A stretch of DNA of 64,000 bases from Alphaproteobacteria bacterium (GCA_965243135.1 OZ251539.1:3616001-3680000), one strand, 5' to 3'; counted from the stretch's first letter, positions 1,908 through 57,405 are shown. Made by a program: numbers and translations. The notes: a model not told the origin generated them from the letters alone.

Positions 1908-4295
1908 TCAGGCGGCTTCGCAATCGAACCCGACGACGTTGCGTTCTTGGCGGCTGAACTCCACCCCGATCAGGTGGACCGAACGCCCGAGACGGCGGTA
2001 CTTGTCCGCGTAGCCCTTCTCCCGCAGCTGCGCGAGCGCGGTCCCCTCCCGCCCGCGCTCCACCACCTTGAACTCGAACAGGTAGACGCGCCCGCCGGCG
2101 CGGATCGCCATGTCGGCGCGCCCCAGGCTGCCGCTGTCCTCGGCCACCGGCTCGAAGCCCTCCATCAGGAAGCAGCTGTGGATGACGCTCGCGTAGTGGG
2201 CCTCGTACTTCGCGACGGGGCTGTTCATGTACCATTGGTGCGGGATGGCGGCGAAGACGCCGCGGAACAGGGTCCCGAGGCGCTCGAAGTCGTTCGCCTC
2301 CAGCAGTTCGCCCAGCCGCAGGCGCGCCGTCTTCTTGCGCGCCTCGACCGGGAGCAGTTCTTCCAGCAGGGCCTCGCCCAGGCTCTGGCGCACCTCGAGG
2401 TTCGGATAGTCCAGCCGGTAGCGCCCGTCCTCCTCGCCCGCGATGGGTAGAGTCGAGGACTGGCGCGTTAGCTTTAGGGTCCGGTGGATGTTCCGTCGCT
2501 TTCGCTCCGGGCCTCAGTCCGGCTCCCGTGGCCACGTTTCCAGTCCCCGCTCTCCGAACCGGACGTGCGGATTTCCCGCGCCTCCAGCAGGATCATGCGT
2601 CTCGCCCACGGATGGATTGTCAGCGTTCCCAAAAAACGGCCGGTTTTCCGGACCCGGGAGTTGCACCGTCTCCCATATTTTCCGCCTGTTCTCGCTTTCC
2701 AACCCGTCGCCGAGCCTGTTTACGCCTCGACGACCCCGGCCTCTCGACCGGGTTCCTTCGCTTGTGACGCTTCCGGGATCTCTGGCATGTAGTCGGTTGT
2801 TAGGCATAGCCAATCTCCGAGCCCTTCTCCCTTGCGGCGCCCTTCCTCGCCTGAGGCCCCTTTCCTCCGCCGGCGTTACCCGGCTTCTCCGGTACTACGG
2901 GCCTCTCCGCCACCCTGCCGGCCCGGCCTGCCCCTCGCGGGGTTCCGGTTGACTCGTGCGCGTCACCGACAGGGCTTCCCGTGTTGCTGCTTCCTTCATC
3001 TTCCATGCGTGCCGACATCACTACCCCGGCGGAAACGGTCGGTGCTTTTGTCGTTCTCTTCCCGACCGTCGGCGGCTTTCCCCTAACCTCAGGAGGGTCA
3101 GCTTCCGCATTGACCGTTTCGAGGCCTGCTCAATGTTCACTACTCGTTTCGGCCCGCGTGTTCGCTGAGCGGCCTTCGCCGCCCTTTCCCAGAGTGCTTC
3201 AGCCTACATCGTTACCTCCGTAAACCGCCCTGGCCGCTACCAACCGGAACGACAGTTGTTGGGTGGGATTCGCACCCACCAGAAGAAAGCGCCTTTCCAC
3301 GGCGCACTGAGGTAGCCGGTCTGGAACAGAAGCGCCTCGACATTGTCCACGTCGAAGGCCGAGAGCAGGCTCTCGCTGCCGATCATGCCGTCCAGGTCGG
3401 GCGTGGGCAGGTCGCGGCGCGTCAGCGTCTCGACCAGGAAGGTCGGCGTGCCGCTCAGGAACCAGTAGTTGCCGAACTTGCGTTTGTCGAACAGCAGCAG
3501 GATGTCGAACGGGTTGTAGATCTTTTCCGGTCCGAGCCAGTTGTAGCCGTTGTACCAGCGCCGGACCTCGTCCCGGTCCAGGCCCTCGAGTTCCGGGGCG
3601 AAGACCGCGTCCAGTTCGTCGTCCGTGTAGCCGCAGATATCGCCGTAGCGCTCGTCCAGCGTGATGTCGTTCAGGTTGTTCAGGCCAGAGAACAGGCCCG
3701 CTTTCGAGAATTTGCTCACCCCCGTCAGGAAAACGAAGCGGAGCTGCCTGTCGCAAGCCACCCCGTACAAGCTGCGCAGGAAATTGCGGTTGGCCAGCGC
3801 CAGTTCCCGGTCGCCGAGCGCGTCCAGAATCGGCTTGTCGTATTCGTCCACCAGAACGACCACCTTCTGCCCTGTGCGCTCGTGCAGCGTCCTTATCAGG
3901 CGCCGGAAACGGACCGCTGCCCCGGCGGGGCCCGGTTCGAGGCCGGCCTGCATCTCCGCCTCTTCCAGCTGCGCTTCCACGGTTTCCCGAACCCCGTCCG
4001 GAGTGTCGAAATCGCCCACGCCGCTGAAATCCAGCCGCACGACCGGGTGGCGCGCCGACCAGTCCCACTTGCCGTGCACGGCGAGGCCCCGGAACAACTC
4101 CTCGCTTCCCTCGAACAGCTCCTGCAGCGTGTCCACCAGCAGGCTCTTGCCGAACCGGCGCGGACGCGACAGGAAGTAATACTTGCCCCTCTCGACGAGG
4201 CGGCGCACATGGTCCGTCTTGTCGACGTAGTAGCAATCCATCCCCCGGATCTCCCGGAGGGAGGTCATGCCGATCGGAAGCATGCGTCTCGTCAT
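1908..4295 (-). pseudogene. AAA-ATPase-like/PD-(D/E)XK nuclease, copy 1, interrupted by a group II intron (exons 4295-3308 and 2446-1908)
   Basis: YYVDKT, SRPRRFGKS, LVDEYDKP, FLTGVSKF, then GRADM..YLFEFK. The joined exons are 988+539=1527 nt, in frame (GYL-T-IAGEEDG). Two small in-frame deletions relative to the paralogs. Confidence 0.9.
2447..3307 (-). mobile_element. ORF-less group II intron, 861 nt
   Basis: Starts GTGCGCC at 3307 and ends CTCGACTCTAC at 2447. DV-like GCGGGAAATCCGCACGTCCGGTTC. EBS1 TGAGGT (3086-3091) lies in a hairpin loop and is complementary to the exon end ACCTCA. No RT ORF. Confidence 0.9.
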
Positions 4296-4301
4296 CCGAA
4301 G

Positions 4302-4330
4302 AGAGTAGGCCGCAGTGCCGGAACCGTCAA
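4302..4330 (-). promoter_or_regulatory. Sigma70 promoter of AAA copy 1 (leaderless)
   Basis: TTGACG-17 bp-TACTCT-6 bp-ATG. Confidence 0.7.
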
Positions 4331-4549
4331 GGAAGAGACGGCCGCGAGCGTGATTGCGTTCGGGCCGCGGCGGGAATTCTCGCCTCCTTTCCAGCCGCCG
4401 CGACCGAGCGCGCTACGACAGGCTTTTCCTGAGCGACAGGGTAGTCAAGGCAACGACTGCGCCAAGCCGAAGCGGGGAAGCGTGTCGCGGCGGCCAGCCC
4501 CTTCGGTAACGATGCTGCCTCGATGCATCTTCCGCGCGGGGCGGACGCC

Positions 4550-5617
4550 TCAGCGGGAATCGCTGCGGAGCTTTATCAAATAACGGAAGAGATCCAGGTA
4601 GCGTTGTATGATGGCCTGTCTTGAGAACTCGGTTTCGAAACGCCGACGTCCCGATGTCGCCAAATTTCGACGGAGCTCCGGGTTTTCGATTAAACGAAAA
4701 ATCGACTTCGCCAGCGCTTCCGTGTCGTCGATCGGAGTTAGCAAACCATCCAACCCGTCCCTGATCAGCCACGCCGGTCCTTTCGAAGCGCACGCCACGA
4801 TCGGCGTTCGGGACGCCCATGATTCGACGATAACGATGCCGAAAGACTCATGCCTCGAAGGGTGAACAACAATATCGGCGCTCGCAATCAGATTCGAAAT
4901 ATCTTCGCGCCAACCGAGGAAACGAATCCTCGAACCTATCCCGATATCCCGCGCCTGTTTCACAAGGCGCGCTCGTTCATCTCCCTCTCCGGCAAGCAAG
5001 AGAAAAACGCCTTCAAGGAGTTTCATCGCATGTAGAAGGACATCGAACCTTTTTGCCGGAGCCAACCTGCCGGCGGCCAACAGCAAAGGGGCGTCCTCAG
5101 GAATATCGAGAGAGTCACGGGGGAGGGGGCTTTCATTTCCAGGTTCATTGATCGGAAAATTGGGAATAAAACTTATCCTTTCTCTAGGCCAGCCATTGTC
5201 GACCGCGAATTGAAGAATATCCGGAGTTACCGCAATCAAATGATCGGAATTATTGATTTGCCTCCTGACATTGTAGTACCCGTCGAGCCGCCCAACCCTC
5301 ACGGCGGAATGTTCGGCAAATCTGGATGCATGACCATTCATCACTGCAGCTCTTGTCTTCCATGAAAGTATGATATCCGGTCGGAATCTATCGATCTCCT
5401 TCGCAATATATGGAATGGATTTGAAATCGAACCACCGTCCCAACGGAAGGGTGACCGTTTCCACCTCAGCCGCTTGGAGCCGCGTAGTGAACGACGCGTG
5501 ATCGCGAACGAACGTACGCTGCGTTATCCCTTGTTTCTGGAAGCTTTCGGCGCATTTGACGAATAATTCTTGCACGCCGCCGAATGGATCTCCTGTCAGC
5601 GTTTGCAACAACCTCAT
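4550..5617 (-). CDS. GT4-type (GT-B fold) glycosyltransferase, copy A
   Basis: N-terminal GGVQ, GRLAPAK, FLGWREDI, PSRHESFGIVIVESWA. Visibly more AT-rich than its flanks. Confidence 0.9.
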   Translation of the reverse strand: MRLLQTLTGDPFGGVQELFVKCAESFQKQGITQRTFVRDHASFTTRLQAAEVETVTLPLGRWFDFKSIPYIAKEIDRFRPDIILSWKTRAAVMNGHASRFAEHSAVRVGRLDGYYNVRRQINNSDHLIAVTPDILQFAVDNGWPRERISFIPNFPINEPGNESPLPRDSLDIPEDAPLLLAAGRLAPAKRFDVLLHAMKLLEGVFLLLAGEGDERARLVKQARDIGIGSRIRFLGWREDISNLIASADIVVHPSRHESFGIVIVESWASRTPIVACASKGPAWLIRDGLDGLLTPIDDTEALAKSIFRLIENPELRRNLATSGRRRFETEFSRQAIIQRYLDLFRYLIKLRSDSR

Positions 5618-5715
5618 TTGGACGAACCCTGCATTTTATTATTCAAAATTACCTCGCTATAGAAGATAAAGTATCGGACAACCACCTGCGATATCGTTTG
5701 GCGTCGTTAACGGAC

Positions 5716-5997
5716 GACCGGTCCACATACCCCGTCCGGATTTAGAACGCTCCCAGACCAAGGAGGCGGCAGCGTCCGGGCGGATTGCCCGAGACGGTTT
5801 CCGCGGAAACGGCGGTCTCGAAAATTCGCGGTTTTCCGCTCTCGAAGCGGGGAAATTCTCCCTCCCTTGAAGGCCGTCGCCATTTCAGGACGCCAGGAAC
5901 GGCGGCCGCCCTCGGCGAGGCGCTGGCCGCCCCGAACATGCGACAGCCTTTCGCGGAGGCGGCTGCCGAAATGTCCGAACGGGACACTCGCCCGGCT
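5716..5997. repeat. IS-end relic plus AAA-downstream repeat, internally deleted version
   Basis: Matches 9036-9507 but lacks about 190 bp after CCAAGGAGGCGG. Confidence 0.85.
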
Positions 5998-7542
5998 TCA
6001 GGCGGCCTCGCAATCGAACCCGACGACGTTGCGCTCCTCGCGGCTGAACTCCACCCCGATCAGGTGCACCGAACGACCGAGATGGCGGTACTTGTCCGCG
6101 TAACCCTTCTCCCGCAGCTGCGCGAGCGCGACCCCCTCCCGCCCGTGCTCCACCACCTTGAACTCGAACAGGTAGACGCGCCCGTCGGCGCGGATCGCCA
6201 TGTCGGCGCGCCCCCGGCTGCCGCTGTCCTCCGCGACCGGCTCGAGGCCCTCCATCAGGAAGCAACTGTGGATGACGCTCGCGTAGTGGGCCTCGTACTT
6301 CGCGACCGGGCTGTTCATGTACCACTGGTGCGGAATGGCGGCGAAGACGCCGCGGAACAGGGTCCCGAGGCGCTCGAAGTCGTTCGCTTTCAGCAGTTCG
6401 CCCAGCCGCAGGTTCTCCGTTTCCTCGCGGGCCTCGTTCGGGAGCAACTCTCCCAGCAGGGCTTCGCCCAGGCTTTGGCGCACCTCGAGGTTCGGGTAGT
6501 CCAGCCTGTAACGTCTCCCGCCGTCCTCCTCGCCGGCGATGGTCAGGTAGCCGGTCTGGAACAGAAGCGCCTCGACCGAGATCCTGTCCACGTCGAAGGT
6601 CGAGAGCAGGCTCTCGCTGCCGATCATGCCGTCCAGGCGGGGAGTGGGCAGGTTGCGGCGCGTCAGCGTCTCGACCAGGAAGGTCGGCGTGCCGCTCAGG
6701 AACCAGTGGTTGCCGAACTCGCCCGTTTCGAAGAGAAGGAGGATGTCGAACGGGTTGTAGAGCTTGTCCGCGCCGCGCCAGTTGTAGCCGTTGTACCAGC
6801 GGCGGATCTCGTCCCGGTCCAGGCCCTCGAGTTCGGGGGCGAAGACCGCGTCCAGCTCCGAGTCCGTGTAGCCGCAGATGGAGCCGAAACGGGGGTCGAG
6901 GGTGACGTCGCGCAGGTTGTTCAGGCCCGAGAACAGGCCCGCCTGCGAGAACTTGCTCACCCCCGTCAGGAAAACGAAACGGAGATGCCTGTCGCAGGCC
7001 TTGATCACCCCGTACAGGCTGCGCAGGAAGTCGCGGTTGGCCAGCGCCAGCTCCCGGTCGCCGAGCGCGTCCAGAATCGGCTTGTCGTATTCGTCCACCA
7101 GAACGACCGCCTGCCGCCCGGTGCGCTCGTGCAGCGTCCTTATCAGGCGCCGGAAACGGATCGCCGCCCCGGCGGGGCCCGGTTCGAGGCCGGCTTGCAT
7201 CTCCGTCTCTTCCAGCTGCGCTTCCACGGTTTCCCGAGCCCCGTCCGGGCCGTCGAAACGGCCCACGCCGCTGAAATCCAGCCGCACGACCGGATGGCGC
7301 GCCGACCAGTCCCACCCGTCGTGCACGGCGAGGCCCCGGAACAACTCCTCGCTTCCTTCGAACAGCTCCTGCAGCGTGTCCACCAGCAGGCTCTTGCCGA
7401 ACCGGCGCGGACGCGACAGGAAATTGTACTTGCCCCTCTCGACGAGACGGCGCGCATGGTCCGTCTTGTCGACGTAGTAGCAGTCCATTTTCCGGATCTC
7501 CCGGAGGGAGGTCATGCCGGTCGGAAGCATGCGTTTCGTCAT
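5998..7542 (-). CDS. AAA-ATPase-like/PD-(D/E)XK nuclease, copy 2 (intact)
   Basis: 514 aa with RPRRFGKS, LVDEYDKP and GRADM..FEFK..ALAQLREKGYADKY. Confidence 0.93.
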   Translation of the reverse strand: MTKRMLPTGMTSLREIRKMDCYYVDKTDHARRLVERGKYNFLSRPRRFGKSLLVDTLQELFEGSEELFRGLAVHDGWDWSARHPVVRLDFSGVGRFDGPDGARETVEAQLEETEMQAGLEPGPAGAAIRFRRLIRTLHERTGRQAVVLVDEYDKPILDALGDRELALANRDFLRSLYGVIKACDRHLRFVFLTGVSKFSQAGLFSGLNNLRDVTLDPRFGSICGYTDSELDAVFAPELEGLDRDEIRRWYNGYNWRGADKLYNPFDILLLFETGEFGNHWFLSGTPTFLVETLTRRNLPTPRLDGMIGSESLLSTFDVDRISVEALLFQTGYLTIAGEEDGGRRYRLDYPNLEVRQSLGEALLGELLPNEAREETENLRLGELLKANDFERLGTLFRGVFAAIPHQWYMNSPVAKYEAHYASVIHSCFLMEGLEPVAEDSGSRGRADMAIRADGRVYLFEFKVVEHGREGVALAQLREKGYADKYRHLGRSVHLIGVEFSREERNVVGFDCEAA

Positions 7543-7548
7543 TCGAAG

Positions 7549-7577
7549 AGGATAGGCCGCCGCGCCGGAACCGTCAA
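7549..7577 (-). promoter_or_regulatory. Sigma70 promoter of AAA copy 2 (leaderless)
   Basis: TTGACG-17-TATCCT-6-ATG. Confidence 0.7.
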
Positions 7578-7869
7578 GGCGGCGGCCGCGAGCGTAATTT
7601 CCAGTTCATTTTTCCGGTTTTGCGATTCGATAACCGCCCCCGCCTCAAGGACCGGAAAACGCCCTGTCGCATGATTGCGTTCGGGCAACGGCGGGAATTC
7701 TCGCCTCCTGTCCAGCCGCCGCGACCGAGAATGCTACGACAGGCTTTCCCCGAGCGACAGGGTAGCCAAGGCAACGACTGCGCCAAACCGAAACCGGGAA
7801 GCGTGTCGCGGCGGCCAGTCCCACGGAAACGATGCCGCCTCGACGCATCTCTCGCGCAGGGCGGCCGCC

Positions 7870-8937: not shown

Positions 8938-9035
8938 TTGGACAAACCCTGCATTTTATTTTTCAAAATTACCTCGCTATAGAAGATAAAGTATCGGACA
9001 ACGACCTGCGATATCGTTTGGCGTCGTTAACGGAC

Positions 9036-9507
9036 GACCGGTCCACATGCCCCGTCCGGATTTAGAACGCTCCCAGACCAAGGAGGCGGACGGAGCGGCT
9101 GCAGGGACCGAGGAAGTTCGAAGCGGCGTCGCGCCCGTCACCGGGTCAAGGCGAATCGGGGCAGGCGTTTCGAAGCGCATGTTCCTTCCCGGCCTCCCTT
9201 TTCAGCGTCGACGTTTTCTCGCGGAGCGTCCCTCTCGCCGGAGTCTTGCCCGGCGCGTCCGTTCGCCGCAGGAGCGGCGTCCGGGCGGATTGCCCGAGAC
9301 GGTTTCTGCGGAAACGGCGGTCTCGAAAATTCACGGTTTTCCGAGCCCAAAGCAGGGAAATTCTCCCTCCCTTGAAGGCCGTCGCCATTTCAGGACGCCA
9401 GGAACGGCGGCCGCCCTCGGCGAGGCGCTGGCCGCCCCGAACATGCGACGGCCTTTCGCGGAGGCGGCTGCCGAAATGTCCGAACGGAACATCGAACTCG
9501 TCCGGCT
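9036..9507. repeat. IS-end relic plus AAA-downstream repeat, full version
   Basis: Colinear with 1445-1907. Confidence 0.88.
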
Positions 9508-11046
9508 TCAGGCGGCCTCGCAATCGAACCCGACGACATTGCGCTCTTCGCGGCTGAACTCCACCCCGATCAGGTGGACCGAACGCCCGAGGTGGCGGTA
9601 CTTGTCCGCGTAGCCCTTCTCCCGCAGCTGCGCGAGCGCGGTCCCTTCCCGCCCGCGCTCCACCACCTTGAACTCGAACAGGTAGACGCGCCCGCCGGCG
9701 CGGATCGCCATGTCGGCGCGCCCCCGGCTGCCGCTGTCCTCGGCCACCGGCTCGAAGCCCTCCATCAGGAAGCAACTGTGGATGACGCTCGCGTAGTGGG
9801 CCTCGTACTTCGCGACCGGGCTGTTCATGTACCACTGGTGCGGGATGGCGGCGAAGACGCCGCGGAACAGGGTTTCGAGGCGCTTGAAGTCGTTCGCCTC
9901 CAGCAATTCGCCCAGCCGCAGGTTCTCCGTCTCCTCGCGGGCCTCGACCGGGAGCAGTTCTTCCAGCAGGGCCTCGCCCAGGCTCTGGCGCACCTCGAGG
10001 TTCGGGTAGCCCAGCCGGTAGCGCCCGTCCTCCTCGCCGACGATGGTGAGGTAGCCGGTCTGGAACAGAAGCGCCTCGACCGAGATTCTGTCCACGTCGA
10101 AGGTCGAGAGCAGGCTCTCGCTGCCGATCATGCCGTCCAGGCGGGGAGTGGGCAGGTTGCGGCGCACCAGCGTCTCGACCAGAAAGGTCGGCGTGCCGCT
10201 CTCGAACCAGTAGTTGCCGAACCTGCGCTCGGCGAACAGCAGCAGGAGGCCGAATGGATTGTAGAGCTTCTCCGGCCCGCGCCAGTTGTAGCCGTTGTAC
10301 CAGCGGCGGACCTCGTCCCGGTCCAGGCCCTCCAGTTCCGGGGCGAAGACCGCGTCCAGCTCGTCGTCGGTGCAGCCGCAGATGTCCGAGAACTCCGGCA
10401 CCAGCGTGATGTCGCGCAGGTTGTTCAGGCCAGAGAACAGGCCCGCCTTCGAGAATTTGCTCACCCCCGTCAGGAAAACGAAACGGAGCTGCCTGTCGCA
10501 GGCCTTGATCACCCCGTACAGGCTGCGCAGGAAGTCGCGGTTGGCCAGCGCCAGCTCCCGGTCGCCGAGCGCGTCCAGGATCGGCTTGTCGTATTCGTCC
10601 ACCAGGACGACCGTTCGCTGCCCGGTGCGCTCGTGCAGCGTCCTTATCAGGCGCCGGAAACGAACCGCCGCCCCGGCGGGACCCGGTTCGAGGCCGGCCT
10701 GCATCTCCGTCTCTTCCAGCTGCGCTTCCACGGTTTCCCGAACTCCGTCCGGGCCGTCGAAACGGCCCACGCCGCTGAAATCCAGCCGCACGACCGGGTG
10801 GCGCGCCGACCAGTCCCACCTGCCGTGCACGGCGAGGCCCCGGAACAACTCCTCGCTTCCTTCGAACAGCTCCTGCAGCGTGTCCACCAGCAGGGTCTTG
10901 CCGAACCGGCGCGGACGCGACAGGAAATAGTACTTGCCCATCTCGACCAGGCGGCGCGCATGGTCCGTCTTGTCGACGTAGTAGCAGTCCATCCCCCGAA
11001 TCTCCCGGAGGGAGGAAAAGCCGATCGGAAGCATGCGTTTCGTCAT
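9508..11046 (-). CDS. AAA-ATPase-like/PD-(D/E)XK nuclease, copy 3 (intact)
   Basis: 512 aa, same motifs (RPRRFGKT). Confidence 0.93.
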   Translation of the reverse strand: MTKRMLPIGFSSLREIRGMDCYYVDKTDHARRLVEMGKYYFLSRPRRFGKTLLVDTLQELFEGSEELFRGLAVHGRWDWSARHPVVRLDFSGVGRFDGPDGVRETVEAQLEETEMQAGLEPGPAGAAVRFRRLIRTLHERTGQRTVVLVDEYDKPILDALGDRELALANRDFLRSLYGVIKACDRQLRFVFLTGVSKFSKAGLFSGLNNLRDITLVPEFSDICGCTDDELDAVFAPELEGLDRDEVRRWYNGYNWRGPEKLYNPFGLLLLFAERRFGNYWFESGTPTFLVETLVRRNLPTPRLDGMIGSESLLSTFDVDRISVEALLFQTGYLTIVGEEDGRYRLGYPNLEVRQSLGEALLEELLPVEAREETENLRLGELLEANDFKRLETLFRGVFAAIPHQWYMNSPVAKYEAHYASVIHSCFLMEGFEPVAEDSGSRGRADMAIRAGGRVYLFEFKVVERGREGTALAQLREKGYADKYRHLGRSVHLIGVEFSREERNVVGFDCEAA

Positions 11047-11052
11047 TCGAAG

Positions 11053-11081
11053 AGGGTAGGCCGCCGCGCCGGAGACGTCAA
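11053..11081 (-). promoter_or_regulatory. Sigma70 promoter of AAA copy 3 (leaderless)
   Basis: TTGACG-17-TACCCT-6-ATG. Confidence 0.7.
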
Positions 11082-11113
11082 GGAGGAGGCGGTCGCAAGC
11101 GTGATTAACCGAC

Positions 11114-11160
11114 GATATGACCGGTCCATATGGCCTGTCCGGTTTTGGAACGCCTCAGGG
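11114..11160 (+). repeat. Short IS-end relic
   Basis: GATATGACCGGTCCATATGGCCTGTCCGGTTTTGGAACGC resembles 5716, 9036 and 63813. Confidence 0.6.
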
Positions 11161-11246
11161 AAGCGGCGGCGGGAAAGCGCATCTTCGTCCGGCGGAACGT
11201 CGCGCGACGGAAGCCCTCGCGCTGGAAAGCAGGGTCTGCGTCGGCT

Positions 11247-20047: not shown

Positions 20048-20091
20048 GCGGCCGGCGCGCGGAAAACGGACGCGCCGCCCCGGCGCGTCCG

Positions 20092-20667: not shown

Positions 20668-21068
20668 GGGAACCTCCCTTCTCGATCGCCCTCCGTGCGG
20701 AGCGCGTTCACGCAGTATCGCACCGTCGTCCGGGGGCGACGAGTCGGACTCGACCGGAGCCCGCCTCGCGTCGTTCGACAAGGCCCGGACGAAACGGCCG
20801 TCGGCCCAGCGAGCTGCCGTATGCCCGCGCATTTCGGCTATCGCTTCAGAAAACGCAACGGATCCGTCCGTTTGGGTATGAACTCCGCATTGCCAAGTCG
20901 CTTCCGATAATGCTAACTTTAAGTGTTCTCTCTCCAAATGTTGTGGGGTGACCGTACCAACACGATGCTGCCGGGGAGGAACACGCCGGAGCTGATGGAA
21001 GATTGCATTGGCGCCTGCGAGAATATGCTCCAAGTGACTTTGATGAATTCTGGGGACCGTGACAAGGA

Positions 21069-34844: not shown

Positions 34845-36378
34845 ATGACGAAGCGCATGCTGCCGACCGGCATGACGTCCCTCCGGAAAATCCGGACGAG
34901 AGGCTGCTACTACGTCGACAAGACGGACCATCTGCGCCGCCTCGTCGAAGGGGGCGACTACTATTTCCTGTCGCGTCCGCGCCGGTTCGGCAAGACCCTG
35001 CTGGTGGACACGCTCCAGAAGCTGTTCGAGGGAAGCGAGGAACTGTTCCGGGGCCTCGCCATACACGGCAAGTGGGACTGGTCGGCGCGCCGTCGTGCGG
35101 CTGGATTTCAGCGGCGTGGGCCGTTTCGATACCCCGGACGGGGTCCGGGGAACCGTGGAAAGGCAACTGGCGGCGACGGAGAGGCGCGCCGGCCTCGAAC
35201 CGGGTCCCGCCGGGGCGGCGGTCCGTTTCCACGAGTTGATCGAGGCCCTGCACGAGCGCACCGGGCGGCGGGCGGTCGTGCTGGTCGACGAATACGACAA
35301 GCCGATCCTGGACGCGCTCGGCGACCGGGAACTGGCGCTGGCCAACCGCGACTTTCTGCGCAGCCTGTACGGGGTGATCAAGGCTTCCGACGAGCAACTC
35401 CGTTTCGTTTTCCTGACGGGGGTGAGCAAGTTCTCGCAGGCGGGCCTGTTCTCGGGCCTGAACAACCTGATCGACGTCACGCTGGAGCCGGAGTTCTCGG
35501 ACATCTGCGGCTACACGGACGACGAGCTGGACACGGTCTTCGCCCCGGAACTCGAGGGCCTGGACCGGGACGAGGTCCGCCGCTGGTACAACGGCTATAA
35601 CTGGCGCGGGCCGGAGAGGGTCTACAACCCGTTCGGCCTGCTGCTGCTGTTTCGGCGGCGCGAGTTCCGCCCGTACTGGTTCCAGAGCGGCACGCCGACC
35701 TTCCTGGTCGAGACGCTGGCGCGCCGCGACCTGCCCACCCCGGACCTGGACGGCATGACCGGCAGCGAGAGCCTGCTGTCGTCCGTCGACGTGGACAATA
35801 TCTCGATCGAGGCGCTTCTGTTCCAGACCGGCTACCTGACCATCGCCGGCGAGGAGGACGGGCGCTACAGGCTGGGCTACCCGAACCTCGAGGTGCGCCG
35901 GAGCCTGGGCGAGGCTTTGCTGGAAGAACTGCTCCCGGCCGAGGCCCGCGAGGAGACGGAGAACCTGCGGCTGGGCGAACTGCTAGAAGCGAACGACTTC
36001 GAGCGCCTCGGGACCCTGTTCCGCGGCATCTTCGCCGCCATCCCGCACCAGTGGTACGCGACCAGCCCGGTCGCGAAATACGAGGCCCACTACGCGAGCG
36101 TCATCCACAGCTGCTTCCTGATGGAGGGCGTCGAGCCGGTCGCGGAGGACAGCGGCAGCCGGGGGCGCGCCGACATGGCGATCCGCGTCGGCGGGCGCGT
36201 CTACCTGTTCGAGTTCAAGGTGGTGGAGCGCGGACGGGAGGGAACCGCGATCGCGCAGTTGCGGGAGAAGGGCTATGCGGACAAGTACCGCCATCTCGGG
36301 CATTCGGTCCACCTGATCGGTGTGGAGTTCAGCCGGGCGGAGCGCAACGTCGTCGGGTTCGATTACGAAACCGCCTGA
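34845..36378 (+). pseudogene. AAA-ATPase-like/PD-(D/E)XK nuclease, copy 4, frameshifted
   Basis: MTKRMLPTG.. from 34845. A 5-nt deletion near 35094 (GCGCGCCGTC[CGGTC]GTGCGG relative to copy 5) shifts the frame; the remainder is open to 36378. Confidence 0.9.
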
Positions 36379-44555: not shown

Positions 44556-44632
44556 CAAGAGCGGTGGCCGTTCTCGACGGGGCACTCGTCGATTCGAATC
44601 TGCCACAGCCTTTCGCGAGGGCAGCTGCCGAA

Positions 44633-44810
44633 ATCAGGTGGACCGCCCGCCCGAGATGACGTTACCTCGCCGTATAGCCCTTCTCCCGCAGCCGCGCGAT
44701 TTCCTCCCGCCCGCGCTCGACCGCCTTGAACTCGAACAGGTAGACGTATCGTCATGTTGACGCGCCCCGGCTGCCGCCGGTCTCGGAGGCTGGCGCGATT
44801 GAGACAGCTC
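44633..44810 (-). pseudogene. Relic of the AAA-nuclease 3' end (copy 7)
   Basis: ATCAGGTGGACC..GCCCTTCTCCCGCAG..CCTTGAACTCGAACAGGTAGACG..GCGCCCCGGCTGCCG match the 3' ends of the other copies, with indels. Confidence 0.85.
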
Positions 44811-53827: not shown

Positions 53828-55360
53828 TCAGACGGTCTCGAACTCGAACCCGACGATGTTGCGTTCTTCCCGGCCGAACTCCACCCCGATCAGGTGGACC
53901 GGCACGTCCGAACGCCGGTACTTGTCCGCGTAGCCGCGCTCCCGAATCTGCGCCAGCGCCCGCCCCTTCCCGTCCGCGACCTTGAATTCGAACAGGTAGA
54001 CGTTGCCGTTGTACAGGACCGCGAGGTCCGAGCGGCCGCGCGCCGTGCTCTCCTCCGCGCGGACGTCCATCCCCGCGGCCACGAAGTGCGAATAGAACAC
54101 GCTCGCGTAGTGCGCCCCCGCCATGCCCGTGTTCGCGTACCACTCGTTCGGGATGCTCGCCAGGAACGCCCGGAACAGATTCTCAAGGCCCGCGAAGTCG
54201 TTCGCCCGCATCAGGCGGCGCAACTCCCGGCTCTCCGCCGCGACCGCGACGTCGGGCGCCATCGCCCTCAGCAGAAGCGCGTTCAGGCTGCGCTTCACCT
54301 CCTGGTTCGGGTAGTCCAGCTGGTAGAAGCGCGTGTCCTCGTCCTGCTCCTCGCCGACGATGGTCAGGTAACCGGTCTGGAACAGCAGCGTCTCGACGGG
54401 AATGCTGTCGACGTCGATGGCCGACAGCAGCGCGTCGTCCGCAACCAAGCTCTCCAGGGCCGGCGGCGCGAACCGGCGCCGCGACAGAAGGTCGACGAGA
54501 AAGGTCGGCGTGCCGGTCTCGAACCAGTGCGCCTCGAACTGGCGACGCCGGAAAAGCAGCAGAATGTCGTGCGGGTTGTAGACCTTGTCCGCGCCGCGCC
54601 AGTTGTAGCCGTTGTACCAGCGCTGAACTTCCTTCCGGTCCAGGCCCTCGAGTTCCGGGGCGAAGACCGCGTCCAGTTCCGCGTCCGTGTAGCCGCAAAT
54701 GGCCGAGAACTCCGGCTCCAGCGTGATGTCGATCAGGTTGTTCAGGCCCGAGAACAGACCCGCCTGCGAGAACTTGCTAACTCCCGTCAGAAAAACGAGA
54801 CGGAGATGCCTGTCGCAGTCCTTGATCGCCCCGTACAGGCTGCGCAGGAAGTCGCGGTTGGCCCGCGCCAATTCCCGGTCGCCGAGCGCGTCCAGGACCG
54901 GCTTGTCGTATTCGTCCACCAGTACGACCGCCCGCTGCCCGGTGCGCTCGTGCAGGGCCTCGATCAATTCCCCGAAACGGTTCGACGCCTCGACGGGATC
55001 CGGTTCGAGGCCGGCGCGCCTCTCCGCCGCCGCCAGCTGCCTTTCCACGGTTATCCGAACCCCGTCCGGGACGACGAAATTGCCCCTGCTGAAACTGATC
55101 CGCACGACCGGACGGCGCGCCGACCAGTCCCACCCGCCGTGCACGGCGAGGCCCCGGAACAGCTCCTCGCTGCCCTCGAACAGTTCCTGCAGCGTGTCCA
55201 CCAGAAGGGTCTTGCCGAACCGGCGCGGACGCGACAGGAAATAGTACTTGCCCCTCTCGACGAGGCGGCGCACATGGTCCGTCTTGTCGACGTAGTAGCA
55301 GTCCATCCCCCGGATCTCCCGGAGGGAGGAAAAGCCGATCGGAAGCATGCGTTTCGCCAT
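53828..55360 (-). CDS. AAA-ATPase-like/PD-(D/E)XK nuclease, copy 5 (divergent C-terminal half)
   Basis: 510 aa from MAKRMLP. GRSDL..YLFEFK. Promoter TTGACG-17-TACTCT at 55395-55367. Confidence 0.92.
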   Translation of the reverse strand: MAKRMLPIGFSSLREIRGMDCYYVDKTDHVRRLVERGKYYFLSRPRRFGKTLLVDTLQELFEGSEELFRGLAVHGGWDWSARRPVVRISFSRGNFVVPDGVRITVERQLAAAERRAGLEPDPVEASNRFGELIEALHERTGQRAVVLVDEYDKPVLDALGDRELARANRDFLRSLYGAIKDCDRHLRLVFLTGVSKFSQAGLFSGLNNLIDITLEPEFSAICGYTDAELDAVFAPELEGLDRKEVQRWYNGYNWRGADKVYNPHDILLLFRRRQFEAHWFETGTPTFLVDLLSRRRFAPPALESLVADDALLSAIDVDSIPVETLLFQTGYLTIVGEEQDEDTRFYQLDYPNQEVKRSLNALLLRAMAPDVAVAAESRELRRLMRANDFAGLENLFRAFLASIPNEWYANTGMAGAHYASVFYSHFVAAGMDVRAEESTARGRSDLAVLYNGNVYLFEFKVADGKGRALAQIRERGYADKYRRSDVPVHLIGVEFGREERNIVGFEFETV

Positions 55361-55866
55361 CCGAAGAGAGTAGGCCGCCGCGCCGGAGCCGTCAAGGAGG
55401 AGGCGTTTGCGCTGCGCCGTTTTTGGCCGGTTGTCGTCCGTTCGACGCCCCGCGAGGCCGCCCGTCGGCAGGTCGGCACGCGCAGGCGGGCGGCGGCGAA
55501 GCAGGACCGTTGCTCCGGCGCCGCACGGCAAACTCGGGGCGAACCAGGCCATGCGGTCGCGGCGCGGGCTGGGGCGGAATCTGCGAAAACGGCGTTCTCG
55601 GCGTGGAAAATTCGCAGTTTTCCACGCCCGAAGCGAGGCAATTCTCCGCCATGCTGTCGGCGTTTCAGGACGTCGGGAACGGCGCGGGAGAGCCTGCAGG
55701 CGGACGCCGCTGCCGGGCCGGGTTCCCGCCCGCCCCCTTGGCGGCGCGTGCAGTCAAGCCGCCGGCGCGCAAGGCGGCGACCCGGCCGCCGTCTTCGACG
55801 AAGCGCAAACCGAACTTGCGTCGCGGGCGGCGTTCTTTCGCGGAGGCGGCCGTGTCGGGAAGCCGT
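55361..55866. repeat. Inter-copy repeat: upstream repeat of copy 5 fused to downstream repeat of copy 6
   Basis: 55361-55640 matches 57406-57685; 55583-55866 resembles 1725-1907. Confidence 0.85.
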
Positions 55867-57405
55867 TCAGGCGGCCTCGCAATCGAAGCCGACGACGTTG
55901 CGCTCCTCGCGGCTGAACTCCACCCCGATCAGGTGGACCGAATGTCCGAGACGGCGATACTTGTCCGCGTAGCCCTTCTCACGCAACTGCGCGATCGCGG
56001 TCCCCTCCCGCCCGCGCTCCACCACCTTGAACTCGAACAGGTAGACGCGCCCGCCGGCGCGGATCGCCATGTCGGCGCGCCCCAGGCTGCCGCTGTCCTC
56101 GGCAATCGGCTCGAGGCCCTCCATCAGGAAGCAACTGTGGATGACGCTCGCGTAGTGGGCCTCGTACTTCGCGACAGGGCTGTTCATGTACCACTGGTGC
56201 GGGATGGCGGCGAAGACGCCGCGGAACAGGGTCCCGAGGCGCTCGAAGTCGTTCGCCTCCAGCAGTTCGCCCAGCCGCAGGCGCTTCGTCTTCTTGCGCG
56301 CCTCGACCGGGAGCAGTTCTCCCAGCAGGGCCTCGCCCAGGCTCCGGCGCACCTCGAGGTTCGGATAGTCCAACCGGTAGTGCCCGTCCTCCTCGCCGAC
56401 GATGGTGAGGTAGCCGGTCTGGAACAGAAGCGCTTCGATCGAGATATCGTCCACGTCGAAGGTCGAGAGCAGGCTCTCGCTGCCGATCATGCCGTCCAGG
56501 TCGGGAGTGGGCAGGTCGCGGCGCGTCAGCGTCTCGACCAGGAAGGTCGGCGTGCCGCTCTGGAACCAGTAGTTGCCGAACCTGCGCTCGGCGAGCAGCA
56601 GCAGAATGCCGAACGGGTTGTAGAGCTTCTCCGGCCCGCGCCAGTTGTAGCCGTTGTACCAGCGGCGGATCTCGTCCCGGTCCAGGCCCTCGAGTTCCGG
56701 GGCGAAGACCGCGTCCAGCTCGTCGTCCGTGTAGCCGCAGATGTCCGAGAACTGCGGCGCCAGCGTGATGTCGCGGAGGTTGTTCAGGCCCGAGAACAGG
56801 CCCGCCTGCGAAAACTTGCTCACCCCCGTCAGGAAAACGAAACGGAGATGCCTGTCGCAGGCCTTGATCACTCCGTACAGGCTGCGCAGGAAGCTGCGGT
56901 TGGCCAGCGCCAGATCCCGGTCGCCGAGCGCGTCCAGGATCGGCTTGTCGTATTCGTCCACCAGCACGACCGTCCGCTGTCCGGTGCGCTCGTGCAGCGT
57001 CCTTATCAGGCGCCGGAAACGGACCGCCGCCCCGGCGGGACCCGGTTCGAGGCCGGCCTGCATCTCCGTCTCTTCCAGCTGCGCTTCTACGGTTTCCCGA
57101 ACCCCGTCCGGAGTGTCGAAATCGCCCACGCCGCTGAAATCCAGCCGCACGACTGGATGGCGCGCCGACCAGTCCCACTTGCCGTGCACGGCGAGGCCTC
57201 GGAACAGCTCCTCGCTTCCCTCGAACAGCTCCTGCAGCGTGTCCACCAGCAGGGTCTTGCCGAACCGGCGCGGCCGCGACAGGAAGTAGTAATCTCCTCC
57301 TTCGACGAGGCGGCGCAGATGGTCCGTCTTGTCGACGTAGTAGCAGTCTCTCGTCCGGATTTTCCGGAGGGAGGTCAAGCCGATCGGAAGCATGCGTTTC
57401 GCCAT
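55867..57405 (-). CDS. AAA-ATPase-like/PD-(D/E)XK nuclease, copy 6 (intact)
   Basis: 512 aa. Promoter TTGACG-17-TACTCT at 57440-57412. Confidence 0.93.
   Translation of the reverse strand: MAKRMLPIGLTSLRKIRTRDCYYVDKTDHLRRLVEGGDYYFLSRPRRFGKTLLVDTLQELFEGSEELFRGLAVHGKWDWSARHPVVRLDFSGVGDFDTPDGVRETVEAQLEETEMQAGLEPGPAGAAVRFRRLIRTLHERTGQRTVVLVDEYDKPILDALGDRDLALANRSFLRSLYGVIKACDRHLRFVFLTGVSKFSQAGLFSGLNNLRDITLAPQFSDICGYTDDELDAVFAPELEGLDRDEIRRWYNGYNWRGPEKLYNPFGILLLLAERRFGNYWFQSGTPTFLVETLTRRDLPTPDLDGMIGSESLLSTFDVDDISIEALLFQTGYLTIVGEEDGHYRLDYPNLEVRRSLGEALLGELLPVEARKKTKRLRLGELLEANDFERLGTLFRGVFAAIPHQWYMNSPVAKYEAHYASVIHSCFLMEGLEPIAEDSGSLGRADMAIRAGGRVYLFEFKVVERGREGTAIAQLREKGYADKYRRLGHSVHLIGVEFSREERNVVGFDCEAA

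What the first reader, a model, noticed from the sequence alone, without database searches (positions are those of the whole stretch)
1908..57405. Paralogs are block mosaics with hypervariable patches, suggesting combinatorial diversification
Seen: the nearest relative changes along the protein. Copy 6 shares SLRKIRTR..DHLRRLVEGGDYYF with copy 4, GDFDTPDGV with copy 1, GQRTVV and AERRFGNYW with copy 3, ARKKT and GSLGRAD with copy 1, and GTAIAQL and LGHSVHL with copy 4. Copy 5 shares IGFSSL with copy 3, ERQLAA.ERRAG..ELIEAL with copy 4 and WRGADK with copy 2. Two patches differ in nearly every copy (DERYGD/DPRFGS/VPEFSD/EPEFSD/EPEFSA/APQFSD and DKRKFGNY/ETGEFGNH/AERRFGNY/RRREFRPY/RRRQFEAH) while the catalytic motifs are invariant. 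Inference: ongoing gene conversion shuffles putative specificity segments, producing a repertoire reminiscent of an immune receptor family.
Basis: partly seen in the sequence, partly recalled or inferred. Interest (0 to 1): 0.78.

Follow-up and report, generated by a model that had tools for sequence, protein, structure and literature searches.

The report
Hundred-copy nuclease gene family, recombining
The six look-alike genes belong to a family of about a hundred ATPase-nuclease genes in one bacterial genome that keep swapping short stretches with each other, so the patchwork is real, but nothing yet shows that it serves as an immune-like repertoire.

Summary
The six copies are DUF1703 genes, a PF09820 ATPase fused to a PF08011 PD-(D/E)XK nuclease.

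The genome holds 98 intact copies and 51 broken loci. Recombination is overwhelming:
- PHI z = -32.7 for 50 copies, and z = -4.1 for the five window copies alone.
- Site incompatibility rises with distance.
- Each third of the gene rejects the trees of the other thirds.

- The first 270 residues form one pool shared by two divergent C-terminal types.
- The most variable stretch, residues 91-141, comes in about 8 cassette classes.
They co-vary as a charge-swapped pair.

The immune-receptor reading is not established. Patch dN/dS is about 1, not significantly above it. No defence model matches, and neighbouring genes are mostly housekeeping. Recombining DUF1703 expansions are already in print for Cardinium (PMC6387759).

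Unexplained: broken copies carry mostly 5-7-nt deletions.

The parts
3308..4295 (-). c1, exon 1 (codons 1 to about 330) of a DUF1703 gene
   Evidence: blastn against c3 aligns c3 nt 1-1000. Translation.
2447..3307 (-). ORF-less group II intron interrupting c1, on the gene's strand
   Evidence: 861-bp insert lying exactly between c3 nt 1000 and 1001. Rfam RF02003 group-II-D1D4-4 at 3142-3281, 75.1 bits, E 6e-16. Removing it leaves an open 508-codon frame. Near-identical copies (97-99%) sit elsewhere in the genome.
1908..2446 (-). c1, exon 2 including the stop codon (nuclease domain)
   Evidence: blastn against c3 nt 1001-1536, 95.3% identity.
5998..7542 (-). c2, intact DUF1703 gene (514 aa), A type
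9508..11046 (-). c3, intact DUF1703 gene (512 aa), A type. Used as the reference for numbering.
   Evidence: Pfam PF09820 195.6 bits and PF08011 61.1 bits. AF2 model with pLDDT 80.6.
34845..36378 (+). c4, A-type copy broken by a 5-nt deletion between 35091 and 35092
   Evidence: The same deletion occurs in 14 broken loci of the genome.
53828..55360 (-). c5, intact DUF1703 gene (510 aa) with the B-type C-terminal half
55867..57405 (-). c6, intact DUF1703 gene (512 aa), A type
10624..10776 (-). Most variable cassette (residues 91-141) in c3. Equivalents: c2 7120-7272, c5 54941-55090, c6 56983-57135.
   Evidence: 16 classes at 10% nt distance, 8 of them with 5 or more members. Distances are 3-9% within classes and 11-45% between classes, and each major class occurs in both A- and B-type genes. 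Coordinates. In the model it forms loop, helix 101-116, loop, helix 126-141, lying between strand 85-89 and the Walker B strand 145-150.
10384..10416 (-). Patch 1 (residues 211-221) in c3. Equivalents: c2 6880-6912, c5 54701-54733, c6 56743-56775.
   Evidence: Four allele groups: AP/VP-EF 26, EPEF 25, DPRF 23, DERY 21 of 95 copies. Coordinates.
10210..10245 (-). Patch 2 (residues 268-279) in c3. Equivalents: c2 6706-6741, c5 54527-54562, c6 56569-56604. It is also the boundary between the shared N-terminal pool and the type-specific C-terminal half.
   Evidence: Co-varies with patch 1. A-versus-B identity drops from 0.87 to 0.68 at nt 811.
11047..11092 (-). Conserved block of about 45 bp directly upstream of the start codon. 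It has a TTGAC-type box, a 17-nt spacer, a TAnnnT box and then 6 nt before ATG. The same block lies before c1, c2, c4, c5 and c6.
   Evidence: Conservation of 80-100% over the last ~45 columns in 50 A-type and 33 B-type copies. The consensus promoter scan found 0 sites at c3, so a promoter role is inferred only.
44632..44793 (.). Short remnant of a family member (matches residues 433-493, 57% identity)
   Evidence: tblastn HSP at genome 3660632-3660793

Best explanation
The six genes are members of a very large DUF1703 family in this genome. Each encodes a STAND/Orc-like P-loop ATPase fused to a PD-(D/E)XK nuclease. There are 98 intact copies at 58 chromosomal places, plus 51 broken loci. The block mosaics are real.

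How the mosaics arise. Frequent, short, non-reciprocal homologous exchange (gene conversion) occurs among the dispersed and tandem copies. Tracts run from tens to a few hundred bases.

How the variation is organised. It is a finite set of alternative segments that are re-dealt, not open-ended hypervariation:
- about 8 cassette classes for a helix-loop-helix hairpin, residues 91-141, between Walker A and Walker B;
- four allele pairs for two patches, residues 211-221 and 268-275;
- two to three C-terminal (linker plus nuclease) types.

The first 270 codons recombine freely across all types. The C-terminal half does not.

What selection preserves. It keeps the reading frames, the ATPase and nuclease catalytic residues, and matched residue pairs such as 218/272.

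Shown here: the family size, the recombination, the modular structure and the linkage pattern.

Inferred: that the exchange is RecA-type gene conversion; that the linked patches touch in the folded protein; and that the protein acts in some genetic conflict (defence or selfish spread) rather than in housekeeping.
For: Family and size
- Pfam hits far above cut-off in 3 of 3 copies tested.
- 157 or more tblastn matches. 98 of 98 full-length hits have open frames. Intact copies make up 151 kb, 2.5% of the genome, and fragments a further 70 kb.

Recombination
- PHI: A type z = -32.7; B z = -28.7; B2 z = -24.3; third codon positions only z = -10.7, -12.0 and -7.6. In every case 0 of 1000 permutations were as low.
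- The fraction of incompatible site pairs rises from 27% at under 5 nt to 61% at 200-300 nt.
- The mean longest identical run is 35.0 polymorphic sites, against 22.1 +/- 0.6 permuted.
- AU tests reject every cross-segment tree, p-AU at most 1.3e-3.
- Some tracts are recent: 436 identical nt between two copies that match at only 84% of polymorphic sites overall.

Modular structure
- A-versus-B identity equals within-type identity over nt 1-810, with 100%-identical 90-nt windows. It falls to 0.54-0.78 beyond that.
- Segment classes assort almost independently (AMI about 0). There are 83 distinct five-segment combinations in 95 copies, against 92.9 +/- 1.4 expected if independent.

Selection
- dN/dS is 0.33-0.38 outside the variable parts.
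- Catalytic residues are conserved.
- Patch 1 and patch 2 stay linked, while common sites between them, silent ones included, are unlinked with AMI 0-0.1.
- In 78 relatives from other genomes, an acidic residue at 218 goes with R/K/Q at 272 in 17 of 17. A basic residue at 218 goes with D/E at 272 in 26 of 40.

Replication elsewhere
- 19 copies in a related genome give PHI z = -49.9. Residues 91-141 are again their most variable stretch.
- Recombining DUF1703 paralogs were reported in Cardinium (PMC6387759, passages read).
Against: - The PHI, run-length and Nei-Gojobori calculations are my own scripts, not the published programs. No breakpoint program (GARD, RDP) was run.
- The run-length test can be inflated by clusters of rare variants.
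- The assembly could not be checked against raw reads, because only short-read contigs were on offer and they break inside the copies.
- No event was caught in progress, so 'ongoing' rests on long identical tracts.
- Patch linkage could partly reflect history if conversion tracts tend to stop at the divergent patches.
- The function is unknown: there were no hits in PADLOC, NCBIfam or by sequence in the PDB.
Confidence: 0.85

Rival explanations
1. Adaptive repertoire. The roughly 100 copies are a germline-encoded set of NLR-like sensor-nucleases. The variable hairpin and patches would set what each copy recognises. Gene conversion would be selected because it creates new combinations.
For: - The ATPase half is closest in fold to STAND-type NTPases: Arch_ATPase 2qen Z 14.8, plant NLR RPP1 12.7, Apaf-1 12.0, Avs3 9.2. 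It carries a nuclease where such proteins carry an effector domain.
- Variation is concentrated in one hairpin in two independent expansions.
- dN/dS in the loop 93-106 is 1.36 (A type) and 1.44 (B type), against 0.33-0.38 for the rest of the gene.
- 83 distinct combinations occur in 95 copies.
- Distribution is patchy and lineage-specific: 5 of 31 relatives and 3 of 151 genomes of the class have a match.
Against: - The bootstrap intervals for dN/dS include 1 (0.75-2.49 and 0.79-2.65).
- There is no repeat-type sensor domain.
- 0 PADLOC families match.
- About 10 of 129 sampled neighbouring ORFs, at 7 of 20 places, are of a defence or mobile kind. The rest with hits are metabolic or housekeeping.
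- The cassettes are few and each recurs in many copies.
- ORC/Cdc6 and TnsC score about as well as the NLRs in the fold comparison.
Confidence: 0.2
2. Selfish multi-copy gene. The ATPase-nuclease unit, with its own short upstream block, spreads and persists for its own sake, like an insertion element or a toxin-type addiction gene. The mosaics are then a passive by-product of homologous recombination among many similar copies.
For: - Copies sit at 58 separate places between unrelated housekeeping operons such as mreBC/ilv, clpB/ndk and hemCD.
- 51 decayed loci lie beside the 98 intact copies.
- The conserved unit is little more than the gene plus 45-130 bp upstream and up to about 170 bp downstream.
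- Separate expansions occur in scattered lineages.
- The nuclease domain is closest in fold to CidB/CinB of Wolbachia, Z 9.9-11.3. Those proteins travel on mobile elements (PMC12445526, passages read).
- Patch dN/dS near 1 fits neutral shuffling.
Against: - No consistent terminal inverted repeats were found in 3 of 3 copies examined.
- There are no near-identical copies. The highest amino-acid identity is 0.977 and the A-type median is 0.868, so there was no recent burst.
- All 98 keep open frames and catalytic residues, with dN/dS 0.35-0.45. That needs selection on each copy.
- No partner (antidote) gene lies within the repeated unit.
Confidence: 0.35
3. Assembly artefact. The mosaics are chimeric consensus sequences built from reads of different copies.
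For: - The family is highly repetitive.
- Short-read contigs of four public runs break inside every copy laid.
- Broken copies carry an odd excess of 5-7-nt deletions, and a consensus error could in principle cause that.
Against: - The genome is one 6.1-Mb contig, with each copy in its own unique flank.
- 98 of 98 full-length copies keep open frames.
- Random chimeras would not preserve the 218/272 charge pairing or the sharp linkage islands.
- The same recombination signal is present in a second, separately assembled genome.
- Intact copies share the same local sequence as the deleted ones.
Confidence: 0.03
4. No recombination. One tree holds, with repeated parallel substitutions at a few permitted residues.
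For: Few alternative states occur per variable site.
Against: - Incompatibility depends on distance.
- The signal holds at third codon positions.
- Segment trees are mutually rejected, with delta lnL of 391-2362.
- Multi-hundred-nt identical tracts occur between otherwise divergent copies.
Confidence: 0.01

Closest known systems
DUF1703 expansion in Cardinium hertigii cCpun (Siozios et al. 2019, PMC6387759; passages read)
   Same: Same two-domain architecture (PF09820 + PF08011). Many paralogs in one genome. Recombination among paralogs shown by RDP4 and PHI. Independent expansions in scattered lineages. Function unknown.
   Different: - Copy number: 25 paralogs there, against 98 intact plus 51 broken loci here.
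- Divergence: mean 39% amino-acid identity there, against 75-98% within types here.
- Host: a reduced insect endosymbiont there, a 6.1-Mb high-GC genome here.
- Not described in the passages I read: the shared N-terminal pool, the cassette classes, the linked patch pair and the intron-bearing copies. I did not open that paper's supplements.
STAND NTPase immune sensors (bacterial Avs3, plant and animal NLRs)
   Same: Fold of residues ~10-360: RPP1 Z 12.7, Apaf-1 12.0, Avs3 9.2. An NTPase joined to an effector-type nuclease. Multi-copy families that diversify by recombination; this last point is recalled for plant NLR clusters.
   Different: - No C-terminal repeat sensor.
- The nuclease is C-terminal.
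- No PADLOC match.
- Not in defence islands in the sample.
- ORC/Cdc6, Arch_ATPase and TnsC match as well or better.
CinB/CidB cytoplasmic-incompatibility nucleases of Wolbachia (PDB 7fiw, 7esy, 7et0; PMC12445526, passages read)
   Same: Residues 298-512 match their PD-(D/E)XK domains, Z 9.9-11.3. CifB proteins also pair an AAA-ATPase-like region with PD-(D/E)XK nucleases.
   Different: - One nuclease domain here, not two.
- No cifA-like partner gene in the repeated unit.
- No sequence-level match to any solved chain beyond E 0.28.
Cassette-type antigenic variation by gene conversion (pilE/pilS, vlsE; recalled, not searched)
   Same: Short non-reciprocal transfers among many similar copies create mosaic coding sequences.
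   Different: There is no single expression site fed by silent, promoterless cassettes. Here all 98 copies are full-length, and each has the conserved upstream block. The protein is cytoplasmic by its domains, not a surface antigen.
Rpn / YhgA-like PD-(D/E)XK proteins (named in the abstract of PMC1913061; their recombination-promoting activity is recalled)
   Same: A multi-copy PD-(D/E)XK family with suspected links to recombination or mobility. One Transposase_31 (YhgA-like) ORF lies near a copy.
   Different: A different Pfam family with no ATPase domain. There is no evidence here that the DUF1703 protein promotes its own exchange.

Membership tests
DUF1703 (PF09820 AAA-ATPase_like + PF08011 PDDEXK_9) | Both Pfam models matched above their gathering scores, in the order N-terminal ATPase then C-terminal nuclease | tested here: met
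   3 of 3 copies tested: PF09820 195.6-198.6 bits (cut-off 26.1) and PF08011 55.9-61.1 bits (cut-off 25.5).
DUF1703 (PF09820 AAA-ATPase_like + PF08011 PDDEXK_9) | Unusual Walker A (RPRRFGK[ST]) and Walker B (DEYD), as described by Knizewski et al. 2007 (PMC1913061, passages read) | tested here: met
   Across the 98 intact copies: R44 98/98, R46 98/98, R47 96/98, G49 98/98, K50 98/98, D150 98/98, E151 96/98, D153 96/98.
DUF1703 (PF09820 AAA-ATPase_like + PF08011 PDDEXK_9) | PD-(D/E)XK catalytic residues present | tested here: met
   D445 92/98, E458 98/98, K460 96/98. Residues 298-512 match the CidB/CinB nuclease domains, Z 9.9-11.3.
STAND-type immune sensors (Avs, NLR-like) | NTPase, helical and winged-helix module of the STAND kind | tested here: inconclusive
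   NLR and Apaf-1 chains score Z 9.2-12.7 over residues ~10-360. Arch_ATPase (14.6-14.8), ORC/Cdc6 (9.8-11.9) and TnsC (about 10) score alike.
STAND-type immune sensors (Avs, NLR-like) | Repeat-type sensor domain (TPR, WD40 or LRR) | tested here: not met
   Only the two Pfam domains are found. The model ends with the nuclease at residue 512.
STAND-type immune sensors (Avs, NLR-like) | Match to a known defence-system model, or residence in defence islands | tested here: not met
   0 PADLOC families for 2 copies. About 10 of 129 neighbouring ORFs, at 7 of 20 sampled places, are of a defence or mobile type.
STAND-type immune sensors (Avs, NLR-like) | Protects against phage or foreign DNA | not testable with these tools
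   Needs expression and challenge in a laboratory host.
CifB/CinB-type toxin with CifA antidote | Two PD-(D/E)XK domains and an adjacent cifA-like partner gene | tested here: not met
   One PF08011 stretch per protein. The repeated unit holds no second ORF, and neighbours differ from place to place.
Silent-cassette antigenic variation systems | One expressed locus plus promoterless partial cassettes | tested here: not met
   98 full-length open copies, each with the conserved upstream block.
Insertion sequence / transposon | Terminal inverted repeats at the ends of the repeated unit | tested here: not met
   No inverted-repeat pair common to the 3 copies examined. Target-site duplications were not tested.
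Diversity-generating retroelement target | A reverse transcriptase with a template repeat, and variable sites confined to template adenines | not tested
   Judged unlikely, because the variants are discrete classes shared by 5-16 copies each. No template repeat was sought.

The most novel reading that the evidence does not exclude
The family may be a bacterial germline repertoire of NLR-like sensor-nucleases. On this reading, about a hundred expressed receptors are made by re-dealing some 8 hairpin cassettes, 4 matched patch pairs and 2-3 nuclease types through gene conversion. The helix-loop-helix hairpin between Walker A and Walker B would be the part that reads the target. That would be a prokaryotic counterpart of plant NLR clusters, or of gene-conversion-built antibody repertoires.

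A linked possibility is that the excess of 5-7-nt deletions in broken copies and in intron copies is the footprint of a nuclease that cuts repeated DNA with a half-turn stagger.
Probability: 0.15. Interest if true: 0.88.

Novelty: new variant of a known kind. Interest (0 to 1): 0.62.

Why it matters
- **A within-genome population.** About a hundred recombining copies in one chromosome behave like a population. Linkage between sites is erased within about 100-200 bases, except where residues must match. The pattern therefore points directly at co-adapted contacts such as 218/272, or residues 88-108 with 171-185, in a protein family whose function is unknown.
- **Scale.** The family takes up some 3.6% of a 6.1-Mb genome. 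Its architecture (STAND-like ATPase plus nuclease) is that of conflict systems. The question 'defence repertoire or selfish gene' can be tested with a handful of natural cassette swaps.
- **A known pattern, taken further.** DUF1703 expansions with recombination were described in an insect endosymbiont. This case shows a far larger and more ordered form of the same thing.

Tried and rejected
**Database and scan searches that found nothing**
- PADLOC, NCBIfam and sequence search of the PDB gave no usable match. The best PDB E-value was 0.28, to an unrelated kinase.
- The consensus promoter scan found 0 sites upstream of c3, so the promoter or leaderless idea stays an inference.
- The inverted-repeat search on three copies found no shared terminal repeats.

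**Reads**
- Only Logan contigs were offered.
- Laid on window 1500-11500 from four runs, they stop at the borders of the copies. No listed piece spans a copy. They can neither confirm nor refute the mosaics.
- Summed depth is not a copy number and is not used as one.
- No RNA holder was listed, so nothing can be said about expression.
- The single read-laying run did not cover c4, so its 5-nt deletion is unchecked.

- The last line of the script failed on a formatting error. The correlation it was to print was not obtained.
Some analyses were therefore not done: PHI on all six window copies including c5, and a formal estimate of tract length.

**Models considered and set aside**
- Diversity-generating retroelement: the variants are discrete shared classes.
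- Silent-cassette antigenic variation: all copies are full length.
- Trans-species cassettes: the related genome's hairpins are at best 62% identical to these.
- Microhomology-mediated slippage for the 5-7-nt deletions: most junctions show 0-1 nt of microhomology.

**Model coordinates**
- Model coordinates are not exposed, so the patches could not be mapped to surface or contact positions beyond secondary structure.

Full report
**1. Checking the observation**

The six copies are:

| Copy | Window coordinates | Strand | State |
|---|---|---|---|
| c1 | 1908-4295 | - | split by an insert |
| c2 | 5998-7542 | - | intact |
| c3 | 9508-11046 | - | intact |
| c4 | 34845-36378 | + | frameshifted |
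| c5 | 53828-55360 | - | intact |
| c6 | 55867-57405 | - | intact |

c1 is not simply broken. An 861-bp insert lies exactly between c3 nt 1000 and 1001. It matches the Rfam group II intron model RF02003 (75.1 bits, E 6e-16) and is on the gene's strand. Without it the frame is open for 508 codons.

c4 carries a 5-nt deletion between window 35091 and 35092. It is unique among the 52 aligned A-type sequences.

In 90-nt sliding windows, the nearest copy changes repeatedly in all five A-type window copies. This holds whether the comparison is among window copies only or among all genomic copies.

**2. What the genes are**

Three of three copies tested match PF09820 (AAA-ATPase_like, 195.6-198.6 bits) and PF08011 (PDDEXK_9, 55.9-61.1 bits). 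This is the DUF1703 architecture of Knizewski et al. 2007 (PMC1913061, passages read), with the family's odd Walker A (RPRRFGK[ST]) and Walker B (DEYD).

PADLOC, NCBIfam and a sequence search of the PDB gave nothing useful.

An AlphaFold2 model of c3 was built from a 38-row alignment. It has mean pLDDT 80.6 and pTM 0.75. The VIA second look gave:
- Residues 4-358 align best to archaeal Arch_ATPases (2qen Z 14.8, rmsd 3.8, 281 aligned; 2fna Z 14.6).
- Next come STAND NTPases (plant NLR RPP1 12.7, Apaf-1 12.0, CED-4 about 11.5, Avs3 9.2), ORC/Cdc6 (9.8-11.9) and TnsC (about 10).
- Residues 298-512 align to the PD-(D/E)XK domains of Wolbachia CidB/CinB (Z 9.9-11.3).

**3. Size of the family**

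The window lies in a 6.10-Mb single-contig genome.
- tblastn with c3 gave 239 HSPs, 98 of them full length. All 98 have a single terminal stop.
- Average-linkage clustering gives an A type of 50 copies (amino-acid identity 0.81-0.97, median 0.87), B of 33, B2 of 12, a divergent pair and a singleton.
- c2, c3 and c6 are A type, as are c1 and c4 at the DNA level. c5 is B type.
- The remaining 141 HSPs fall into 51 broken or partial loci.
- Intact copies cover 151 kb (2.5% of the genome) and fragments a further 70 kb.
- Intact copies sit at 58 places. Tandem runs hold up to 7 copies, with gaps of 140-1400 bp.
- Catalytic residues are kept: K50 98/98, D150 98/98, E151 96/98, D445 92/98, E458 98/98, K460 96/98.

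**4. Recombination tests**

*PHI (my implementation).*

| Set | z | Permutations as low |
|---|---|---|
| A type, all sites (448 informative) | -32.7 (0.528 vs 0.698 +/- 0.005) | 0 of 1000 |
| B type | -28.7 | 0 of 1000 |
| B2 type | -24.3 | 0 of 1000 |
| Third codon positions only (A, B, B2) | -10.7, -12.0, -7.6 | 0 of 1000 |
| Five A-type window copies | -4.1 | 0 of 1000 |
| 19 copies of related genome G004 | -49.9 | 0 of 1000 |

*Distance dependence.* The fraction of incompatible site pairs rises from 27% at under 5 nt to 61% at 200-300 nt. That points to short tracts.

*Run-length test (GENECONV-like).* 693 of 1326 pairs reached p<0.05, against 66 expected. The mean longest run was 35.0 against 22.1 +/- 0.6. 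No pair exceeded the largest permuted run found anywhere.

*Tree tests.* In IQ-TREE AU tests, each third of the alignment rejected the ML trees of the other two thirds and of the full alignment. Delta lnL was 391-2362 and p-AU at most 1.3e-3, with 2000 replicates, fewer than the program advises.

**5.

*(a) A shared N-terminal pool.* Over nt 1-810, A-versus-B identity equals within-type identity. For example, it is 0.886 against 0.912 and 0.885, and some 90-nt windows are 100% identical between types. From nt 811 on it falls to 0.54-0.78, with no window above 0.88. The first ~270 residues are one pool shared by all types. The linker and nuclease half defines the types.

*(b) Cassettes at residues 91-141.* This is the most variable stretch.
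- It falls into 16 classes at 10% nt distance, 8 of them with 5-16 members.
- Distances are 3-9% within classes and 11-45% between classes.
- Each major class occurs in both A- and B-type genes.
- In the model it is a loop, helix 101-116, a loop and helix 126-141. These sit between strand 85-89 and the Walker B strand 145-150.
- From memory, the initiator-specific motif of ORC/DnaA-type ATPases lies at about this position. I did not test this.

*(c) Near-independent assortment.* Segment classes assort almost independently (AMI 0.00-0.08). There are 83 distinct five-segment combinations in 95 copies, against 92.9 +/- 1.4 if independent. Adjacent copies share classes about twice as often as random pairs.

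- APEF goes with AERR or QRRE. DERY goes with DKRK or DKRR. DPRF goes with ETRE-like. EPEF goes with RRRE or RRRQ. This holds in both gene types.
- Common polymorphisms between the patches (nt 664-766), silent ones included, have AMI 0-0.1 with the patch-1 class.
- Patch-1 by patch-2 site pairs have mean AMI 0.235. Other pairs at the same distance have 0.024, and only 1.5% of those reach the patch median.
- In 78 relatives from other genomes, an acidic residue at 218 goes with R/K/Q at 272 in 17 of 17. A basic residue at 218 goes with D/E at 272 in 26 of 40, with R/K/Q in 8 and with other residues in 6. These relatives are not independent.
- I read this as a charge-swapped contact held together by selection.

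*(e) A second long-range association.* Residues 88-108 are linked with residues 171-185, with AMI up to 0.89.

**6. Selection**

Pairwise Nei-Gojobori dN/dS is 0.44 (A), 0.45 (B) and 0.35 (B2) overall. By region:

| Region | A type | B type |
|---|---|---|
| Outside the variable parts | 0.33 | 0.38 |
| Hairpin as a whole | 0.67 | 0.70 |
| Loop 93-106 | 1.36 (bootstrap 0.75-2.49) | 1.44 (0.79-2.65) |
| Patch 1 | 1.29 | 0.86 |
| Patch 2 | 0.96 | 0.53 |

All these intervals span 1. Constraint is relaxed in the variable parts, but positive selection is not demonstrated.

In the separate expansion of G004, residues 91-141 are again the most variable stretch. Mean within-genome identity there is 0.60, against 0.75-0.94 elsewhere. 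Its variants are not those of this genome; the best identity is 0.62.

**7. Context and spread**

- *The repeated unit.* Directly upstream of every start codon lies a conserved block of about 45 bp. It has a TTGAC-type box, 17 nt, a TAnnnT box and 6 nt before ATG. Many copies share a further ~130 bp upstream and up to ~170 bp downstream, themselves in alternative versions. The simple promoter scan found no site at c3.
- *No terminal repeats.* No shared terminal inverted repeats were found in three copies.
- *Neighbours.* At 20 places drawn at random from 52 eligible, I picked 129 non-family ORFs by a GC3 rule of my own. About 10 are of a defence or mobile type: PDDEXK_4, DUF4143 twice, HerA with SIR2, an rve integrase, an HTH_32 protein, AAA_22, an Xre-type antitoxin and a YhgA-like protein. 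Those with other hits are mostly metabolic or housekeeping genes, such as PNPase, MreB/MreC, IlvBNC, ClpB, Ndk, HemC/HemD, fumarases and transporters.
- *In the window.* c1, c2 and c3 alternate with two GT4 glycosyltransferase paralogs.
- *Phyletic distribution.* It is patchy.
  - 5 of 31 relatives, G000 included, have a match. One same-genus genome has 19 intact copies at 56-59% identity to c3, with median 89% nt identity among themselves.
  - 3 of 151 genomes sampled across the class match PF09820.
  - Relatives at 50-62% identity occur, often in several copies, in Latescibacterota, Vicinamibacterales, Gammaproteobacteria, Spirochaetia and others.

**8. What is already known**

- Siozios et al. 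2019 (PMC6387759; abstract and passages read, supplements not opened) described 25 DUF1703 paralogs in Cardinium cCpun. Recombination among them was shown by RDP4 and PHI. They noted that only 9.8% of species carry 10 or more copies.
- Knizewski et al. 2007 (PMC1913061, passages read) defined the domains.
- A 2023 review table lists PF09820 among ATPase domains of defence systems (PMC10952713, one passage read).
- A 2025 study reports an AAA-ATPase-like region with PD-(D/E)XK nucleases as the conserved core of CifB (PMC12445526, passages read).
- My two literature searches found no paper on an expansion of this size, on a shared N-terminal pool, or on linked patches in this family. That is as far as 'not in print' goes.

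**9. Verdict**

The mosaic is real and is made by pervasive short-tract gene conversion within a very large DUF1703 family.

The variation is combinatorial, but it is drawn from a small set of cassettes.

Whether the diversity is used as a repertoire, or is the passive fate of a selfish multi-copy nuclease gene, is open. I put the repertoire reading at about 0.2 and the selfish reading at about 0.35. Neither conflicts with the recombination mechanism.

**10. Unexplained by-product**

The indels of the 51 broken loci, measured against their best intact relative, are mostly deletions of 5 to 7 nt.

| Deletion length (nt) | 1 | 2 | 3 | 4 | 5 | 6 | 7 |
|---|---|---|---|---|---|---|---|
| Count | 18 | 7 | 9 | 2 | 83 | 133 | 11 |

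- Insertions total only 33.
- 37 of 51 loci carry at least one 5-nt deletion.
- The same deletions recur: c3 nt 248-252 in 14 loci including c4, nt 1264-1268 in 12, and nt 454-458 in 10. They lie on different local backgrounds.
- Junctions mostly lack microhomology.
- Deleted pieces are AT-richer than random pieces of the same length (GC 0.547 against 0.666 +/- 0.012).
- Degenerate copies of the group II intron show the same bias: 5 nt 20, 6 nt 37 and 7 nt 8, against 1 nt 18, 2 nt 9 and 3 nt 5.
- Among intact copies, two-codon indels outnumber one-codon indels by 21 to 6 distinct events.

I cannot tell a real mutational process, such as a staggered cut rejoined blunt, from a consensus artefact without raw reads. 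The identical local sequence in undeleted copies argues against a context-driven error.

Noticed in passing
window 2447-3307 (-): An ORF-less group II intron of 861 bp sits inside c1, after the first base of codon 334. Copies at 97-99% identity lie at genome 1934092, 4119187 and 1150704. There too, family hits are split at residue 334. So the intron occupies the same site in at least four family members, either by homing or carried along by gene conversion. Longer hits with an internal gap suggest intron copies that encode a protein elsewhere in the genome.
   Followed up: partly
window 35091|35092 (c4), and 51 broken loci genome-wide: Broken family copies and degenerate intron copies are dominated by 5-7-nt deletions of relatively AT-rich segments. 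These recur at fixed sites. Two-codon indels are also the commonest length change among intact copies. The cause is unknown, and this is not verified with reads.
   Followed up: partly
window 11047-11092 (-), and the equivalent block before each copy: A conserved upstream block has a TTGAC-type box, a 17-nt spacer and a TAnnnT box ending 6 nt before the ATG, with no room for a ribosome-binding site. This suggests leaderless transcripts. The consensus promoter scan did not call it.
   Followed up: partly
c3 residues 88-108 (window 10723-10785) and residues 171-185 (window 10492-10536): There is strong long-range association between polymorphisms about 250 nt apart, with AMI up to 0.89. Sites between them are unlinked. 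This is probably a second co-adapted contact.
   Followed up: no
window 4550-5617 (-) and 7870-8937 (-): Two paralogous GT4 glycosyltransferase genes (355 aa each) alternate with c1, c2 and c3, in lower-GC DNA (0.575-0.587). A unit of about 3.5 kb, holding one glycosyltransferase and one DUF1703 gene, appears to have been duplicated inside a polysaccharide-synthesis region.
   Followed up: no
window 20000-24600: A low-GC island (0.51-0.57) holds an AAA_15/AAA_21 ATPase (21069-22670) and a D12-class N6-adenine methyltransferase (23426-24556). It is possibly a small defence or restriction-modification island.
   Followed up: no
window 10792-10815 (c3), 7288-7311 (c2), 57151-57174 (c6): An imperfect palindrome centred on GGCGCGCC overlaps the hotspot of the recurrent 5-nt deletion at c3 nt 248-252.
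   Followed up: no
genome G036 (same class, about 1.7 Mb, 200 contigs): A small genome carries at least 14 PF09820 matches. This is another independent expansion, here in a reduced genome, recalling the endosymbiont cases in the literature.
   Followed up: no
window 1500-11500, unique flanks: Contigs from a sponge-metagenome run (X4) cover the unique flanking genes with about 1-3% differences. Runs X1 and X7 match them with almost none. Close relatives of this organism are therefore present in those samples. Nothing further was traced.
   Followed up: no
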